Positions 5,845 to 16,765 of a stretch of DNA of 42,633 nt are shown one piece after another. The notes beneath the pieces are model-generated. The model ran no database searches. It saw only the letters and a program-made list of their open reading frames with translations, and was not told where the DNA came from. Location: positions 1 to 42,633 of the IMG/VR virus record IMGVR_UViG_3300049004_000034; one strand, 5' to 3'. A program made the translations under genes and the position numbers. Every line of letters starts with the position of its first letter. The stretch's first letter is position 1. The DNA is from a virus (lineage: Duplodnaviria > Caudoviricetes).

Positions 5845-6306
5845 TCAGCGGTTCTCTCGCAGGGCGTCGATCAGCTCCGACTTAGAGAAACCGGAAGTTC
5901 CTTTGAGATCACGCTCTTTAGCCAGCTCGCGCAGTTCCTCAAGCGTGCGGGACTCGTAAGAGCCACCTGAACCACCACCCGTATCGCCACGATCAGCGGT
6001 GGGCTCCGGGGGCGCTGAGGATATCCCTGCCGCCGTGTCCGGCGGCTCCTGAACAATCGGGAACTCAGAAGCGTAAGTCACCGTCACGTGAGCGCCATCG
6101 GGGCTGTAGAGAGCCAGAGAGGGCGTGTCTTTGCCATCGTAGGCTTTCTCTTTGTCGACCAGCGTGCTTTCGATCTCGTAGCCACCATCCTCATCGGTCG
6201 GGAGTTTGCGGGTAACGAGAACGGAGCCGACGCCTACGGAGATCTCGCGCACGGGAGCCTCCAAGGCCTTTGAGTCCTGAATGTTGAGGGTGAAGACGGT
6301 GGGCAT
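5845..6306 (-). CDS. Protein with C-terminal Rho-N-like helix-extension-helix domain
   Basis: YESRTLEELRELAKERDLKGTSGFSKSELIDAL; AAGGAG RBS before ATG 6306. Confidence 0.75.
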   Translation of the reverse strand: MPTVFTLNIQDSKALEAPVREISVGVGSVLVTRKLPTDEDGGYEIESTLVDKEKAYDGKDTPSLALYSPDGAHVTVTYASEFPIVQEPPDTAAGISSAPPEPTADRGDTGGGSGGSYESRTLEELRELAKERDLKGTSGFSKSELIDALRENR

Positions 6307-6307
6307 C

Positions 6308-6721
6308 TTAGCTTTCCTCCTTGGGAGCAAGATCGTAGAGTTCTTGGGGAATTGGCTTCTGGGGAATAAACTCGGGACCGCTGGGGCTAGCGGTTTCGCT
6401 TTTCACGCCAGCCGTAACGCCAGCTTCAAGCGACTGGCCGAATTGAGCTTCAAAGTCCTTGGTGAGATTGAGATCTGAGAGAGCCGCGTCTAGTTTCTGA
6501 CCTAGCTCGCCAACCTGTCGGCGCATCTCTTCGATCTCGTGCAGCGGGACCATGCTGCAGCACTCACGGGCTGCCTCTTCCACAACCTCACGGCGAAGGT
6601 AGACCCTTGGATCGATACCGATGAAGTCTCGTTCGAAGTCGATTAGTTCTCCGTCCTCCGACCCAGTCACAAGGCATCTGTGAGGGGAGAAGGGAAGCGG
6701 TCCTTTGGTCAAGCGAGGCAT
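6308..6721 (-). CDS. Hypothetical protein
   Basis: AAGGA RBS; central coiled coil. Confidence 0.75.
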   Translation of the reverse strand: MPRLTKGPLPFSPHRCLVTGSEDGELIDFERDFIGIDPRVYLRREVVEEAARECCSMVPLHEIEEMRRQVGELGQKLDAALSDLNLTKDFEAQFGQSLEAGVTAGVKSETASPSGPEFIPQKPIPQELYDLAPKEES

Positions 6722-11863: not shown

Positions 11864-12193
11864 CTAAGTTTTCAGCGTCTCTTCGAGCCTGCGTTTCGCC
11901 TCACGGCGGGCTTCGGCCATTGTGCAGGCCGTTAGATCGCCTCGATTCGGCTGTTCGGCGTAAATCCCTCGCGCCAGTTCCTCCACGTCCACGGCGTTCT
12001 CGGGATCGCCCTGGGGATTCTCCAGCTTCTCGTCTCGCTGGTTGCGAGTCTTCCTGGCCTTCGCCAGGCCGAGCTTCCCTCGTACGTAATCGGAGGTATT
12101 GAGATTGGCTTCTCTCGCCTGTCGGTCGAGCTGGTTCTTCTCCCAGACGACGAGGGGCAAGATGAAACGAACGTTGCGAAGCGGCTTACTCAT
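11864..12193 (-). CDS. Ribbon-helix-helix (MobC/CopG-like) DNA-binding protein
   Basis: VRFILPL..EKNQLDRQAREANLNTSDYVR; ATGA-coupled. Confidence 0.65.
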   Translation of the reverse strand: MSKPLRNVRFILPLVVWEKNQLDRQAREANLNTSDYVRGKLGLAKARKTRNQRDEKLENPQGDPENAVDVEELARGIYAEQPNRGDLTACTMAEARREAKRRLEETLKT

Positions 12194-12528
12194 CGACAGG
12201 CGAAAAGCGCCTGCTTGGCGCATCCGAAGTAAGGCGTCTTTTCGGCTGGCGAGAGGCCCGCCCACTCCCGCCCGCGGTCCGAGGTCCCGGCAGACATCCG
12301 CCGGACGGCTTTGAAGAAGTGCTCGGCCATCGTCTCAACTGCCTCGTCACTCTGTAGCACCTCCTTAAGCCGCTGACGCTCCTGGTCGGCTCCCTGTTTG
12401 CGGAGGGCGGGGGCAACGGCGGCCACTACGTCATCCAGATCACTTTGGTCGCTTTCCACATCGATGACCAGGCCGTTTTTGCATGCCGTCGACCACGCGG
12501 CGGTCAAAGCTTCTTTCGGTAGCTCCAT
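12190..12528 (-). CDS. Hypothetical protein (leaderless)
   Basis: TAGGCT (12535-12540)-N6-ATG. Confidence 0.75.
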   Translation of the reverse strand: MELPKEALTAAWSTACKNGLVIDVESDQSDLDDVVAAVAPALRKQGADQERQRLKEVLQSDEAVETMAEHFFKAVRRMSAGTSDRGREWAGLSPAEKTPYFGCAKQALFACR

Positions 12529-12537
12529 GCCGGGAGC

Positions 12538-12696
12538 CTAGCAGATTGTGTCCATAATCACGACAAGCTCCCAAAGACCGTCTTCCCGTTCGCGCCACTG
12601 CCCAACGTTACGAGACTTCCCGGTCTCGTCCTCGACCTCTACGAATACAAAGGTCGCTCCGGGCTTGCGATCGAAGACGAAGCGAAGCTCTTTCAT
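12538..12696 (-). CDS. Small hypothetical protein
   Basis: MKELRFVFD...FVEVEDETGKS..VGQW; ATGA-coupled to upstream gene. Confidence 0.7.
   Translation of the reverse strand: MKELRFVFDRKPGATFVFVEVEDETGKSRNVGQWREREDGLWELVVIMDTIC
12545..12558. promoter_or_regulatory. Palindromic operator ATTGTG-TC-CATAAT just upstream of the -10 box of the 12528 gene
   Basis: Exact copy of 8662-8675. Confidence 0.65.
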
Positions 12697-13118
12697 GCCG
12701 TTCGATAGGTCGTCGGCGGAACCGGGGCGTAGCCCTCGCGCTGGGGGATCTTCTCCAAGACCTCCCCCTTCTTGACCTTCGCCCATTCCTCTCCGGCCTG
12801 ATGCCTGGCTGTTACGCCGGGCCAGCGTCTCTCAACGTCTCTGTGAAGTTCGGTAATGCGCTCGTAGAGATAGCGTACGTAGTCGTCGCGGGAGGCGTCT
12901 TCAGGAACGAGAAGCGCCTCTACGTCCTCCAGCGCCGGAGGGGTCTCGTGGCCCTCAAATTCAAGGGTGTCTCCCACGCTGGGCGTCGGGCCGACTATGG
13001 AGCAGGTTCGAACGTAATCGGAAGTCTTTTGGCCAAACTCCTCGGCCAGGACCTCAATCCGTTCCTTCTCCTCGGTTGTGGCCCGGAACTTGATGGTCTC
13101 GCTTCTAGTTTCTGTCAT
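12693..13118 (-). CDS. Ribbon-helix-helix (MobC-like) DNA-binding protein
   Basis: TIKFRATTEEKERIEVLAEEFGQKTSDYVR; leaderless TACCGT-N6-ATG. Confidence 0.75.
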   Translation of the reverse strand: MTETRSETIKFRATTEEKERIEVLAEEFGQKTSDYVRTCSIVGPTPSVGDTLEFEGHETPPALEDVEALLVPEDASRDDYVRYLYERITELHRDVERRWPGVTARHQAGEEWAKVKKGEVLEKIPQREGYAPVPPTTYRTA

Positions 13119-13285
13119 GTGGCCACGGTAGCAGAGGACCACAGTGTTTGTGGCCACAGAGGGCTATTGGTTCCCAGCTAGTGCATCTCTGGCTTATAAA
13201 GATATTAGCTACGCACGCACAGCCGACCCACTCCCCCGCCCCCTATGGCTTGCTAGAGCGGTTTGAGGTTGATCAGCGCTCAGGC

Positions 13286-13372
13286 CTACTCGTGCTCAGC
13301 GCCGCAGCGTGCGCACTTGAGCCTGTCGATCTCCAGCCAGGACAAGAGGCGATAGCACGCTCTACATCGCAT
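13286..13372 (-). CDS. 28-aa zinc-ribbon microprotein
   Basis: MRCRACYRLLSWLEIDRLKCARCGAEHE; TAGGCT-N6-ATG. Confidence 0.65.
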   Translation of the reverse strand: MRCRACYRLLSWLEIDRLKCARCGAEHE

Positions 13373-13386
13373 GGCTACAGCCTAGC

Positions 13387-13515
13387 TCATCTGGCTCTGT
13401 AATGCGGGTTAGCGCTGTTTACAAGCGCGTAGGTACGAGCGCAACGTAGACATAGCGCCAGGTACCTCGCAGGTCGTAGTGCTCCACAGCGCTCACAGCG
13501 CGGGTCTGCGCTCAT
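13387..13515 (-). CDS. 42-aa zinc-ribbon microprotein
   Basis: MSADPRCERCGALRPARYLALCLRCARTYALVNSANPHYRAR. Confidence 0.55.
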   Translation of the reverse strand: MSADPRCERCGALRPARYLALCLRCARTYALVNSANPHYRAR

Positions 13516-13614
13516 GCCTGGATACCCCTGAGACGCTCTGTAAGACGTTCTAACGGCAATCGAGGGTCTCCTGGTAGGAAGCTATTCATTTAGCTCTAGG
13601 AGTGGCTTAGAAGG

Positions 13615-13767
13615 CTATTTGACAGGACGAGAGAGAGCATCTTGTTGTAGCAAGTACCTTACGTAAGCGCTAAAGCTGCTTCCGTGGTTCTTAGCCTGTC
13701 TCTCTACCGCAGCGCGTTCCTTAGCGCTCATGCGAAGTCTTAGTTGTCCGTGCTTGTGTTCTGGCAT
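13615..13767 (-). CDS. 50-aa ribbon-helix-helix protein
   Basis: MPEHKHGQLRLRMSAKERAAVERQAKNHGSSFSAYVRYLLQQDALSRPVK. Confidence 0.7.
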   Translation of the reverse strand: MPEHKHGQLRLRMSAKERAAVERQAKNHGSSFSAYVRYLLQQDALSRPVK

Positions 13768-13788
13768 GTAGCAACGAAGGTCGAAGGA

Positions 13789-13884
13789 CTAAATCTGAGA
13801 TGCGCCGCAATTCGGGCACTTACCCAACGTGCCGAGATGCCAGCCGCACTTGCAGATCCTTGGTTCTCTGCTCTCATCGCTCAT
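13789..13884 (-). CDS. 31-aa zinc-binding microprotein
   Basis: MSDESREPRICKCGWHLGTLGKCPNCGASQI; TAGGAT-N7-ATG. Confidence 0.65.
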   Translation of the reverse strand: MSDESREPRICKCGWHLGTLGKCPNCGASQI

Positions 13885-13916
13885 AGCCTCAATCCTACCA
13901 GCAAACCGCTCTGTGT

Positions 13917-13945
13917 TTGCTTTTCAGGTTCTTAGGGTCTACAGT
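13917..13945 (+). promoter_or_regulatory. Sigma70-type promoter of the + strand small-gene (early-like) operon
   Basis: TTGCTT-17bp-TACAGT, divergent from TAGGAT at 13892-13897. Confidence 0.55.
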
Positions 13946-13978
13946 GCAGTAGAAGACAACAACTAGCGAGAAGGACGA

Positions 13979-14164
13979 ATGAACTGGAGAGAGTTGGAGC
14001 AAGAGGCCATGATCGCGGCCGAGGAAGCACGCCGTCACTCCTTCGAAAGCCACACGATCAACGACCTACGTAGATGGCGTGATGAAGCCGAAAAGGCCGG
14101 TGAGCACGGTGTGGCTGACGAGATAGCCCGAGCGTTTGATCGCAAGATGGCCCCTCATGCTTGA
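13979..14164 (+). CDS. Hypothetical early protein
   Basis: AAGGA RBS; first of tightly coupled small ORFs. Confidence 0.75.
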   Translation: MNWRELEQEAMIAAEEARRHSFESHTINDLRRWRDEAEKAGEHGVADEIARAFDRKMAPHA

Positions 14165-14351
14165 CCAACGCTCACTGGCCGAGAAGAGCGCTGACCTGGA
14201 GCTTGAGATCGTGCGCTCTGACCTAACGGCTCAGGGCGAAGAGCTTGAGAAGGAAGGACTCCACGAGCCTGAAATCCTCGGAGCCTTCTGCGAACAGCTC
14301 GAAGAACGGCTCGCTCACCTGTACCGCGAGCTTTACGAGATCGGAGTCTGA
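14157..14351 (+). CDS. Hypothetical acidic protein
   Basis: Overlaps upstream stop. Confidence 0.7.
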   Translation: MLDQRSLAEKSADLELEIVRSDLTAQGEELEKEGLHEPEILGAFCEQLEERLAHLYRELYEIGV

Positions 14352-14491
14352 TGTTCGGTCTCCGGATCGAAATCTACGCCGATGACCTCAACGGAGTGAC
14401 CTACCAACTTCATGGCAAGGAATCGATCATGTACAAGGCGTGGCAATCCGGATTCGAGGACGAAGCCGACTACATGCCCTTCGGATGCTAG
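14351..14491 (+). CDS. 46-aa hypothetical protein
   Basis: GGAG RBS, TGATG coupling; MFGLRIEIYADDL. Confidence 0.65.
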   Translation: MFGLRIEIYADDLNGVTYQLHGKESIMYKAWQSGFEDEADYMPFGC

Positions 14492-14551
14492 ACGCCAACG
14501 TTTCTCGCAAAGCCCCTGCAGAGCGTCTTAAGTCTAAGAAAGGACAAGACA

Positions 14552-14734
14552 GTGGCTGACACTCAGAAGACAACAAAAGCCGCTAGAGAGGCTCTTACGG
14601 CTTCTCAGAAGATACCAGTTCTTTTGACCAGGGAAGAGTTGGGATATTGCCTTGGCTTTAGTAAGCCGATGGTCAAACTCTCCGACATCAACAGGAAGTT
14701 TAGAGCCGCTCTGGGAAGGCTTGAAAATGACTAA
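14552..14734 (+). CDS. Hypothetical protein
   Basis: AAGGA RBS, GTG start. Confidence 0.65.
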   Translation: MADTQKTTKAAREALTASQKIPVLLTREELGYCLGFSKPMVKLSDINRKFRAALGRLEND

Positions 14735-14891
14735 GACAAATCCTCGCTACACCGTCGAGCTGACGACTGAGGGATGGCAGATCAAGGACAACGAGAAGAA
14801 CAACTACGGCGGAGACGCTTACGGCTCAAAGGCTATCGCTGAAGCTGAGGCAGACGCTGCTAATCGTTTTGAAACGGACTGGCCTAGCTGA
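14727..14891 (+). CDS. Hypothetical protein
   Basis: MTKTNPRYTVE...WQIKD; overlaps upstream stop. Confidence 0.7.
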   Translation: MTKTNPRYTVELTTEGWQIKDNEKNNYGGDAYGSKAIAEAEADAANRFETDWPS

Positions 14892-14962
14892 TGGACCGCT
14901 CTGACGTCCTAGGCATCCTTCTCGGAGCCTGCGTGATCTTCGTCCTGGTTCACTGGATCTAG
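14891..14962 (+). CDS. 23-aa single-TM peptide
   Basis: MDRSDVLGILLGACVIFVLVHWI; coupled at both ends. Confidence 0.55.
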   Translation: MDRSDVLGILLGACVIFVLVHWI

Positions 14963-15141
14963 TGGCCGGGCTAACGCAAGCGGAGTTCGAAGCCTACGCA
15001 GCGCTGGCTTGGAAGTGCAGGCTGATCAACAAAGACCAGTTCGAGCTTCTTCGCAAAGAACACAAGCGCCTTGAGGGCTGGCCTTTCGCACAGGCTGTCA
15101 AGTGCCTCGAAGACGAAATGCGCTTCGAAGGGCGATTGTGA
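14962..15141 (+). CDS. 59-aa hypothetical protein
   Basis: GTG coupled to upstream TAG; GTGA overlap downstream. Confidence 0.6.
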   Translation: MAGLTQAEFEAYAALAWKCRLINKDQFELLRKEHKRLEGWPFAQAVKCLEDEMRFEGRL

Positions 15142-15356
15142 CTGAGCCAAGCGCTGAACAAATCAGAGCCGAACTGAGCCGTATCGGCTACGAGAAGGTC
15201 AAGGCCCGCGGCGCAAAGAACAAGAACGCCGTTGAACTCAAGCAATGGCTGCTTGAGGCTCGGCACAACCCAGAGGTATCGATGAACGAAGCGATCAAGC
15301 TGGCTGGGACGTATTGGTCCGTTGCCAAACACCTAGGGCTACTGGAGGAGAAATGA
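15138..15356 (+). CDS. Hypothetical protein
   Basis: GTGA coupling. Confidence 0.65.
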   Translation: MTEPSAEQIRAELSRIGYEKVKARGAKNKNAVELKQWLLEARHNPEVSMNEAIKLAGTYWSVAKHLGLLEEK

Positions 15357-15562
15357 CGGTAGGCGAGCTACGCAAAGCACTTGAGAAGTACGACCAAGAC
15401 GCCCTTGTGCTCACTCGCGGATACGAGGACGGCTACGTCGCTGCTGCGCCCGAGACCGAGTTCATGGCCTATCAGAAATCAAGCGCCTGGTACTACGGCG
15501 ATTGGTGGGAGGTCATGGATGCCAAAGACGGCCCGGGACAAAAAGCGCTCTACATCGGCTAA
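15353..15562 (+). CDS. Hypothetical protein (MTVGEL...L N-terminus)
   Basis: GGAGGAG RBS; ATGA coupling. Confidence 0.75.
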   Translation: MTVGELRKALEKYDQDALVLTRGYEDGYVAAAPETEFMAYQKSSAWYYGDWWEVMDAKDGPGQKALYIG

Positions 15563-16089: not shown

Positions 16090-16262
16090 CGGTACATCTG
16101 CCTTGTGAAGAAGCGCCTAGCTATGAGTTCAGAACGCGTAGGGTCCCAGGGTCGCTTAGGCCACTCCCAGGTTGCTTGAGCTAGATCTGGCCCAACGTCC
16201 CAACCACAGAGCGGGTGTGCCCAAGCGGCCAGTGGAAGATCCTGAAGGTCGTACGGCCTCAT
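16086..16262 (-). CDS. Trp/Pro-rich small protein (leaderless)
   Basis: TAGGAT-N7-ATG; ATGA overlap with downstream gene. Confidence 0.55.
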   Translation of the reverse strand: MRPYDLQDLPLAAWAHPLCGWDVGPDLAQATWEWPKRPWDPTRSELIARRFFTRQMYR

Positions 16263-16299
16263 ACCCATGATCCTATCTCAAGAACTACGAAAAGAGAAG

Positions 16300-16380
16300 T
16301 GGACGCGCGGGGACTTGAACCCCGATCCGATTGGCGAGACTCGTCAGTCCCGGTCGGCAACTGATCCGCAGATCGCGCCC
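16300..16380 (-). ncRNA. tRNA-like RNA with Ala identity (G3-U70, A73) and non-canonical D/anticodon region
   Basis: Acceptor GGGCGCG/CGCGTCC+A; T-arm CGGGG-TTCAAGT-CCCCG; TACAAT -10 exactly 6 nt before G1; CCA not encoded. Confidence 0.8.
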
Positions 16381-16395
16381 ACCCACATTGTATCG

Positions 16396-16651
16396 AAAAC
16401 TCCACCGCTCGCGGATCAACGGCGAGGAGGCTCTACGAGCGGTGGCATTGCGGGAGAGAACCGCAAAAGGTGCCCCTCGGCTGTCATGACAGCGCTCGCA
16501 ATTAAGCTCGTAAGGGGCATGAAGTCTAAGACGGGTGCTCGATGGTCCCGTTTCGCACGGGACTGTGATCTAGCTGCTCTATCTCCCACTGGAATGTGGG
16601 CGAACCACTCCCGGCGACCGGGTGAGCGCGATCTTATGGCGCTCCAGCTAA
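16396..16651 (-). ncRNA. Candidate highly structured ncRNA
   Basis: Extended -10 TGcTATGTT (16658-16666); 4-way junction closed by TAGCTG/CAGCTA, then four more stems ending in a 10-bp stem + GTTTT. Confidence 0.55.
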
Positions 16652-16672
16652 TGCAGAAACATAGCAGTTCGG

Positions 16673-16765
16673 TCAAGCCCAACCAAAAGCGACGTAACAA
16701 ACCCAGTAGCCCGTATGGATAACAGCGATAGCCAAAAGGGCCACAATCATCCTCCCGTCGCTCAT
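16673..16765 (-). CDS. 30-aa membrane peptide
   Basis: MSDGRMIVALLAIAVIHTGYWVCYVAFGWA; ATGA-coupled. Confidence 0.5.
   Translation of the reverse strand: MSDGRMIVALLAIAVIHTGYWVCYVAFGWA

What the first reader, a model, noticed from the sequence alone, without database searches (positions are those of the whole stretch)
16300..16392. Promoter-driven tRNA mimic with alanine identity but no normal anticodon arm (mini tmRNA-TLD-like RNA)
Seen: the minus strand reads GGGCGCG-ATCTGCGGATCAGTTGCCGACCGGGACTGACGAGTCTCGCCAATCGGAT-CGGGGTTCAAGTCCCCG-CGCGTCC-A. It has a 7-bp acceptor stem with G3-U70, discriminator A and a perfect T-arm. The D-like stem is only 3 bp (CTG/CAG), and the middle arm is irregular (CCGA/TCGG enclosing GACT-GACG-AGTC) with no 7-nt anticodon loop. 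TACAAT sits exactly 6 nt before G1, so transcription could start at the mature 5' end. Established: G3-U70 and A73 specify charging by AlaRS, which ignores the anticodon; the tmRNA tRNA-like domain uses the same elements. Inference: an alanylatable non-decoding RNA. It might be a decoy for tRNA-targeting anti-phage nucleases, a sponge for SmpB/EF-Tu, or an Ala donor for non-ribosomal transferases.
Basis: partly seen in the sequence, partly recalled or inferred. Interest (0 to 1): 0.85.

Follow-up and report, generated by a model that had tools for sequence, protein, structure and literature searches.

The report
Swappable alanine-type tRNA mimic in phage
A soil phage carries an 81-base tRNA-shaped sequence with alanine-loading marks but no normal anticodon loop, behind a likely promoter, in a slot that related phages fill with quite different short non-coding sequences, so it is likely one of a set of interchangeable small RNAs that would act as decoys for host proteins.

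Summary
Window 16380-16300 (minus strand) has a 7-bp acceptor with G3·U70 and A73, a perfect T arm and a tetraloop-capped long arm. 0 of 300 shuffled windows give this pattern.

It is neither a tRNA nor a tmRNA by Rfam, although the same tmRNA model finds the similar-shaped, TLD-only RNA of phage DS6A. It departs from near-invariant tmRNA bases, which weakens the SmpB-sponge idea.

New here: it is cargo of a variable slot between two conserved promoter blocks. All 9 relatives keep a TANNNT box but hold other 60-150-base non-coding sequences. One relative has a different tRNA mimic nearby. Near-identical copies occur in 2 of 7 other runs laid; one copy sits in tandem with its own -10 box.

Best reading: a stand-alone, non-decoding, probably alanylatable RNA acting as decoy for host tRNA-binding proteins (about 0.4). 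Expression, charging and target are untested. The scan noted similar alanine-type mimics before, on other DNA.

The parts
16300..16380 (-). 81-base tRNA-shaped RNA gene (G1 = 16380, discriminator A = 16300); CCA not encoded
   Evidence: near-identical copies in runs X6 and X8
16374..16380 (-). Acceptor 5' strand GGGCGCG; pairs with 16307-16301 (CGCGTCC) to give G1-C72, G2-C71, G3·U70, C4-G69
   Evidence: pair probabilities 1.0 for pairs 1-6 and 0.59 for pair 7; a natural tRNA with G3·U70 and C4-G69 in L041
16358..16373 (-). Non-canonical D region: A8 instead of U8, GG at n14-15, weak 3-bp stem
   Evidence: U8 in 38 of 38 control tRNAs; pair probabilities; no listed change in X6 or X8
16327..16357 (-). 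Long arm in the anticodon position: 4 bp, 1x4 internal loop, 7-bp hairpin (16352-16335) capped by GACG
   Evidence: pair probabilities 0.93-0.98 for the 7-bp stem; three one-sided changes in homologues all keep pairing
16308..16324 (-). T arm CGGGG-TTCAAGT-CCCCG, preceded by GGAT
   Evidence: only T arm with acceptor in the window
16387..16392 (-). -10 box TACAAT, 6 bases before G1 (promoter inferred)
   Evidence: TANNNT in 10 of 10 loci, 6 variants; duplicated together with the element in X8; no -35 by consensus scan
16386..16467 (-). Block B: near-invariant 82-base non-coding block, two hairpins and a T run ending in the -10 box; left wall of the slot (terminator plus promoter inferred)
   Evidence: 94-100% identical in relatives while flanks do not align; one-base insertions in L006 and L014 argue against coding; single copy in the window
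16260..16298 (-). Block C: next promoter (TTCTCT or TTGCCT, 17-18 bases, TAGGAT, 7 bases, ATG; leaderless start inferred); right wall of the slot
   Evidence: same TAGGAT-7-ATG layout at 13897
16624..16677 (-). Block A: conserved upstream block with TGCTATGTT and a hairpin whose AAGAT loop is kept while the stem varies
16468..16623 (-). Second variable segment (between A and B), multi-hairpin in this phage; holds a different tRNA mimic in L022
   Evidence: fold z -2.73 for 16390-16680; pieces in runs X2, X3, X4, X5, X10

Best explanation
The element is a tRNA-shaped, likely stand-alone small RNA that sits as exchangeable cargo between two conserved, predicted promoter blocks, is predicted to be alanylated but not to decode, and likely works in trans as a decoy for host proteins that recognise the acceptor end and T-arm side of tRNA.

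Shown: the sequence, its shape marks, the slot, the conserved TANNNT box, absence from 9 of 9 relatives' slots and presence in two other samples.

Inferred, in order: transcription from G1 by the host sigma-A polymerase; 3' trimming and CCA addition by host enzymes; charging by AlaRS through G3·U70 and A73; no ribosomal decoding, because the anticodon position is a closed 7-bp hairpin and U8 and a normal D arm are missing; titration of acceptor-end-targeting defence effectors (toxSAS, nucleotidyltransferase or tail-cleaving types) or of EF-Tu; swapping of cargo by recombination at blocks B and C, as at PeSL elements.
For: Non-chance shape with alanine marks. G3·U70 and A73 are the AlaRS determinants (PMC3968760, passage). 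-10 box conserved only at T, A and the last T. In X8 the element lies about 92 bases after block B with a second copy of 16399-16386 in front of it, so promoter end and RNA move as one unit. The downstream gene has its own promoter block. Slot cargo is 60-146 bases, with no closed ORF over 66 bases and no blastn match over 11 bases between slots. A second, unrelated tetraloop-capped tRNA mimic lies in the same island of L022. Three of four listed changes in the homologues fall in the 7-bp stem and keep pairing. Precedents: phage RNA mimicry against a toxin (PMC3475682, abstract); acceptor-end toxins implicated in antiphage immunity (abstract starts).
Against: No expression, charging or target evidence; the one RNA-labelled run laid (X4) does not cover the element. 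Only two homologues, about 97% identical: all changes are one-sided, and G7>A in X6 breaks acceptor pair 7. About half of random transitions at paired sites keep pairing anyway (28 of 52), and the spacer-versus-element contrast is only p = 0.053. One unlisted difference in X8 lies near an end of its piece, so G3·U70 is secure only in X6. Slot cargo is not generally more structured than shuffles (z -2.13 to +0.37; 3 of 10 below -1.8). In the tested case phage tRNA rescue needed the anticodon (PMC11555353). No tRNA-like RNA in 6 of 6 related genomes scanned, so it is dispensable.
Confidence: 0.4

Rival explanations
1. A degenerate CDS-less tmRNA (TLD-only, like that of phage DS6A) that binds SmpB and dampens or diverts trans-translation.
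For: Same layout and length as the DS6A TLD: 81 against 80 bases, 3-bp D-like stem with 5-base loop, irregular tetraloop-capped arm, 2-base connector, no encoded CCA; one gap in alignment. A8, as in 4 of 31 tmRNAs and 0 of 38 tRNAs. GGAT before the T stem is one transition from tmRNA GGAC and is absent from 38 tRNAs. Read from the GG, equivalents of A15, G19 and A334, which contact SmpB (PMC8363625, passages), are present. A similar molecule inhibits tmRNA (PMC4131195, passage).
Against: RF00023: no match at E <= 10, against 43.2 bits for DS6A. G4, GG-NNNN-GAC and GGAC are in 31 of 31 tmRNAs; the element has C4, GGATCAGTT (score -13.7; lowest tmRNA 9.5) and GGAT. C18, which stacks on G19, is A. 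Its best 9-mer in another register scores -3.6, close to DS6A's -3.3, so this test is not decisive. Similarity of the middle part to DS6A is not above shuffles (511 of 2000). The tmRNA set is mostly Chloroflexota, with none from the likely host phylum.
Confidence: 0.17
2. A cis element: a tRNA-like cutting or stopping signal (t-element or mascRNA type) that lets RNase P/Z or termination insulate the downstream genes from the block B promoter.
For: Acceptor and T arm, the parts these enzymes read (own knowledge), are the best-formed parts; the best Rfam hit over the element is a weak mascRNA match on the T arm (19.4 bits, E 2.4). A T-rich tail follows. The L022 mimic ends the A-B segment.
Against: G1 sits at the expected +1, so there is no leader to cut. 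The downstream gene has its own promoter in all 10 loci, and 9 relatives manage without a tRNA shape in this slot. G3·U70 would not be needed.
Confidence: 0.15
3. Neutral or decaying cargo: a captured tRNA (Ala, Val or Lys type) or tmRNA end that has drifted, the slot being a recombination hot spot filled with odds and ends.
For: Patchy presence (0 of 9 slots; 2 of 7 other runs). No distant homologue in any collection. Pair 7 broken in X6. A GGGCGCG acceptor strand also occurs in ordinary tRNA-Val and tRNA-Lys. The arm begins GCCGAC and closes AA-TCGG like phage tRNA-Lys anticodon stems, as if a hairpin had replaced the anticodon.
Against: Perfect acceptor and T stems, exact promoter spacing, tandem copy with its own -10 box, and no listed change in 29 unpaired positions.
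Confidence: 0.16
4. An odd decoding tRNA: alanine-charged, with an 8-base loop CU-GACG-AG that reads Val codons or a four-base codon (mistranslation or frameshift).
For: ARAGORN draws this cloverleaf; C32, U33 and a purine at 37 are in place; the loop is unchanged in both homologues. G3·U70 allo-tRNAs insert Ala regardless of anticodon (PMC7609411, passage).
Against: The loop-closing pairs form with probability 0.96-0.98 and the open form costs about 5 kcal/mol; no U8, no GG in that D loop; RF00005 gives no match at E <= 10.
Confidence: 0.07

Closest known systems
CDS-less (TLD-only) tmRNA of mycobacteriophage DS6A (PMC4131195, PMC11915505; passages read)
   Same: About 80 bases, G3·U70 and A73, 7/5 acceptor and T arm, reduced D region, irregular tetraloop-capped arm, no encoded CCA.
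   Different: DS6A keeps G4 and CGAC and scores 43.2 bits with RF00023; this element has C4 and A8 and does not score; no significant sequence similarity in the middle.
tRNA-Ala (Rfam RF00005)
   Same: G1-C72, G2-C71, G3·U70, A73; C4-G69 also occurs in a natural tRNA with G3·U70 (L041); canonical T arm.
   Different: No U8, no normal D arm, no 7-base anticodon loop; no RF00005 match.
PeSL promoter-terminator cassettes of T4-like phages (PMC4122927, abstract read; PMC2839356, listing only)
   Same: Conserved stem-loop plus promoter blocks flank unrelated, swapped segments; tandem duplication at the promoter end.
   Different: PeSLs shuffle protein genes and are repeated across the genome; here the blocks are single-copy and the cargo is short and non-coding.
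pseudo-ToxI RNA mimic of phage PhiTE (PMC3475682, abstract read)
   Same: Precedent for a phage non-coding RNA that defeats a defence toxin by mimicry.
   Different: It mimics an antitoxin repeat and was shown by experiment; here the shape is tRNA and no target is known.
Allo-tRNAs and irregular soil tRNA-like RNAs (reviewed in PMC7609411, passages read)
   Same: Soil, mobile-element tRNA look-alikes, some with G3·U70, some non-translating.
   Different: Those have 8/4 or 9/3 acceptor branches and a long variable arm; this one is 7/5.

Membership tests
Canonical tRNA (RF00005) | 7-bp acceptor and 5-bp T arm with TTCRA loop | tested here: met
Canonical tRNA (RF00005) | U8 and a normal D arm | tested here: not met
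   A8, against U8 in 38 of 38 controls; D stem probability 0.11
Canonical tRNA (RF00005) | 5-bp stem with 7-base anticodon loop | tested here: not met
   tetraloop, or at best an 8-base loop
Canonical tRNA (RF00005) | Covariance-model match | tested here: not met
   0 matches at E <= 10; 14 of 14 control genomes positive
tmRNA / TLD-only tmRNA (RF00023) | G3·U70 and A73 | tested here: met
   kept in X6, not certain in X8
tmRNA / TLD-only tmRNA (RF00023) | GGGG acceptor start, D loop GG-NNNN-GAC, GGAC connector | tested here: not met
   31 of 31 tmRNAs have all three; the element has GGGC, GGATCAGTT and GGAT, with a displaced CGAC at n25-28
tmRNA / TLD-only tmRNA (RF00023) | Covariance-model match | tested here: not met
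   none at E <= 10; DS6A TLD 43.2 bits
tmRNA / TLD-only tmRNA (RF00023) | SmpB binding | not testable with these tools
   some contact bases present, C18 not
Bacterial Y RNA (YrlA type) | Rfam match and a Ro60/Rsr gene nearby | tested here: not met
   no Y RNA hit; no such family among 64 ORFs
Allo-tRNA | 8/4 or 9/3 acceptor branch | tested here: not met
   7/5 (definition)
t-element / mascRNA-type processing signal | Lies inside a longer transcript and is cut by RNase P/Z | tested here: inconclusive
   own -10 box at the 5' end and a separate downstream promoter argue against; cleavage not testable
PeSL-type cassette | Conserved stem-loop plus promoter flanking swapped segments | tested here: met
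PeSL-type cassette | Many copies per genome, shuffling ORFs | tested here: not met
   block B single copy; cargo non-coding

The most novel reading that the evidence does not exclude
This phage family keeps a promoter-bounded slot in which whole small RNAs, not genes, are exchanged: two kinds of anticodon-capped tRNA mimic, a kissing-loop double hairpin and a pseudoknot. Each would be an RNA decoy against a different host defence or translation factor, making the slot an RNA-only counter-defence cassette, with the alanylated, uncleavable tRNA mimic as one allele.
Probability: 0.25. Interest if true: 0.78.

Novelty: new variant of a known kind. Interest (0 to 1): 0.47.

Why it matters
Phage tRNAs are known to beat tRNA-destroying defences by replacing lost tRNAs, which needs an anticodon. 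A promoter-driven, chargeable RNA without a usable anticodon would have to work another way, as a sink for acceptor-end toxins, EF-Tu or SmpB. The slot also supplies about ten alternative short cargos at one fixed address, a ready panel for asking what phage small RNAs do. If the cargo is neutral, the case is an ordinary recombination hot spot holding a tRNA-derived relic.

Tried and rejected
Homologue searches that gave nothing:
- Viral-contig patterns for D region plus T loop: 2 hits, one phage, read as chance inside coding-looking DNA.
- Acceptor plus T arm: 0. Connector plus T arm: 0.
- Genome-contig pattern: 3 hits, an ordinary tRNA-Val(CAC) and two with no ARAGORN call.
- blastn against phage and plasmid records: only short, non-significant hits.
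- No prophage relative in genome contigs. Block A pattern: 4 of 10 hits were unrelated chance matches.
- The scan's earlier notes hold nothing for this sequence or genome.

Other dead ends:
- ARAGORN at a lowered threshold gave noise.
- The sigma-70 consensus scan found no promoter.
X2, X3, X4, X5 and X10 do not cover the element, which proves nothing.
- X8 record 15 matches only 16297-16330 with 3 differences; its upstream letters look to me like a tmRNA 3' end, unverified.

Rejected readings:
- attP copy of a tRNA or tmRNA end: both acceptor strands are present, and no integrase was found among 64 ORFs.
- Coding by overlapping ORFs: the slot varies and block B has one-base insertions.
- Permuted two-piece tmRNA and Y RNA: no model match.
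- Homology to DS6A by sequence: not significant.
- 'All cargo is structured': not shown.

Full report
Setting. The window is a complete 42.6-kb phage record with 127-base terminal repeats, 58% G+C. It has terminase, portal, RNase H and Holliday-junction resolvase genes. The runs that hold the element itself are soil metagenomes. The host is probably Actinomycetota: most nearest atlas clusters of its HTH protein are commonest in that phylum (a lead only), and TAGGAT-7-ATG layouts suggest leaderless promoters (the link to that phylum is my own knowledge). The element lies upstream of a 60-aa ORF and a conserved 176-aa ORF with 29 matches including itself and no family hit; small terminase is only a guess.

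The observation. It is ARAGORN's only call, undetermined. A T arm plus 7-bp acceptor arose in 1 of 300 shuffled windows, with alanine marks in 0 of 300; ARAGORN found nothing in 60 shuffles. Acceptor pairs 1-6, the T stem and a 7-bp hairpin capped by GACG have pair probabilities of 0.85-1.0. The outer CCGA/TCGG helix is about 0.6 and the 3-bp D stem 0.11. Overall folding energy is not unusual (z -1.61). An open cloverleaf with an 8-base loop is about 5 kcal/mol worse.

Family tests. Rfam gives no tRNA, tmRNA or Y RNA hit. Single-family searches of the genome find nothing at E <= 10 for RF00005 or RF00023, although controls ring in 14 of 14 genomes and RF00023 finds the TLD-only RNA of phage DS6A at 43.2 bits. 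I compared 31 tmRNAs (30 from GTDB genomes, mostly one Chloroflexota sample, plus E. coli; L071 dropped because its 5' end was cut) and 38 of 39 unique tRNAs (one not parsed). All 31 tmRNAs have G4, GG-NNNN-GAC and GGAC before the T stem; all 38 tRNAs have U8. The element has C4, A8, GGATCAGTT and GGAT. Its acceptor is tRNA-like (C4-G69 with G3·U70 in L041), its linker and connector lean to tmRNA, and it belongs to neither. DS6A's RNA has almost the same layout, but the middle parts are no more alike than shuffles (511 of 2000).

The slot. Terminase relatives showed that the conserved DNA is not the tRNA shape but the 82 bases before it (block B, 94-100% identical), a block A further up, and a promoter block C directly after. 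Block B patterns gave 6 viral and 7 metagenome loci, which collapse to 9 distinct relatives. All 10 loci end block B in TANNNT, with six different hexamers, the pattern expected of a -10 box. The B-C slot holds the tRNA shape in 0 of 9 relatives. It holds other 60-146-base sequences with no closed ORF over 66 bases and no mutual blastn match over 11 bases. Most are not more structured than shuffles; 3 of 10 have z below -1.8. Some are suggestive. L008 and L026 share two hairpins with complementary loops, 27 of 28 cells paired and two two-sided changes, though two sequences cannot beat the shuffle control (127 of 500). L025 can form an H-type pseudoknot. L022 carries, just before block B, a different tRNA mimic with a normal D arm and a UUCG-capped long arm, without G3·U70 (z -2.64); a look-alike with a GAAA cap occurs in another phage contig, L124. 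Six related genomes hold no ARAGORN tRNA or tmRNA and 0 of 10 related records match RF00005.

Homologues of the element. I laid 8 of 20 listed runs. X1 may be the source. Of the other 7, X6 and X8 (two further studies) cover the element. Listed changes inside it: n44 U>C and n33 A>G (X8), n43 C>U and n7 G>A (X6). The first three lie in the 14-base stem (p about 0.02 for the clustering) and keep pairing; the fourth breaks acceptor pair 7. None falls in the 29 unpaired bases. The 6-base spacer varies at 2 sites against 4 of 81 in the element (p = 0.053). All changes are one-sided and about half of random transitions would keep pairing, so this is weak support for selection. Three differences near piece ends are not listed; one, in X8, could lie in the acceptor 3' strand, so G3·U70 is secure only for X6. 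In X8 the element is a second cassette, about 92 bases after block B, preceded by its own copy of 16399-16386 and followed by a block C variant. Promoter end and RNA therefore travel together.

How it likely works. Shown: shape, slot, promoter-type conservation, patchy presence. Inferred: transcription from G1; trimming and CCA addition (DS6A's RNA and several host tmRNA genes also lack an encoded CCA); alanylation through G3·U70 and A73 (PMC3968760); no decoding. A promoter-driven allele of a fast-changing slot most plausibly acts on the host, and without an anticodon it cannot replace lost tRNA, the route shown for T5-like phages (PMC11555353). That leaves titration of proteins that read the acceptor and T arm (0.4). 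Rivals: SmpB sponge (0.17), neutral relic (0.16), cis cutting or stopping signal (0.15), odd decoder (0.07). An alanine donor for a transferase has no partner among 64 ORFs scanned. There is no RNA evidence.

Literature and novelty. Ten library searches turned up no description of this RNA or of a promoter-bounded slot of swapped small RNAs; the library lacks most subscription papers. Passages read: PMC4131195, PMC11915505, PMC3968760, PMC8363625, PMC7609411, PMC11555353. Abstracts: PMC4122927, PMC3475682. Listings only: PMC2839356, PMC5389517, PMC10690425 and the toxin papers. Supplements were not read; the nine 'standard, no CDS' tmRNA entries of PMC11915505 and the viral candidate RNAs of PMC10690425 could bear on novelty. 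Earlier AI notes of this scan describe several alanine-type, anticodon-less mimics and PeSL-like islands in other phages, unchecked, so the kind recurs. Verdict: a real, probably expressed tRNA mimic that resembles TLD-only RNAs in build but is not a member; a new variant of a known kind; interest 0.47. The RNA-cargo slot is the more novel lead.

Noticed in passing
window 16386-16467 (block B): 82-base non-coding block, near-invariant in stems and loops across 10 phages; its 24-base loop holds CCTCCT, which resembles an anti-Shine-Dalgarno sequence (recalled). Could be an sRNA, a protein-binding DNA site or a recombination anchor; no Rfam match.
   Followed up: partly
L022:1243-1324 (-) and L124:490-570 (+): A second type of tRNA mimic: normal D arm, long arm capped by UUCG or GAAA instead of an anticodon; L124 lies in another phage contig, behind a TTGACA-type promoter-like site.
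   Followed up: partly
L008:1466-1545 and L026:125-200: Slot cargo with two hairpins whose loops are complementary (AGATGG/CCATCT against AGATAG/CTATCT), a kissing-loop junction with two compensatory changes.
   Followed up: partly
L025, slot after block B (about 1240-1300): Possible H-type pseudoknot of 7 and 8 pairs.
   Followed up: partly
window 16624-16677 (block A): Conserved hairpin with an AAGAT loop and changing stem; in most relatives a 5' TAGC helix can close a small junction.
   Followed up: no
L014:1405-1430, same motif in L007: A-B cargo contains AGGTCC-AAAC-GGAAGC, which resembles the SRP RNA helix 8 motif (recalled, untested; no Rfam hit).
   Followed up: no
L006, about 900-1590: An ORF on the opposite strand appears inserted between blocks A and B; it looked to me like a GIY-YIG-type nuclease domain, not tested.
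   Followed up: no
window 13160-15560: Region of small plus-strand ORFs and short conserved blocks alternating with variable segments in relatives; three NikA-like ORFs lie at 11864-13767 (one strong Pfam hit, two weaker).
   Followed up: partly
L112, L116, L120, L121, L122: Phage tRNA-like genes interrupted in the anticodon loop by long insertions, probably group I introns.
   Followed up: no
window 5845-6330: ORF among the head genes ending in a Rho N-terminal / SAP-like domain.
   Followed up: no
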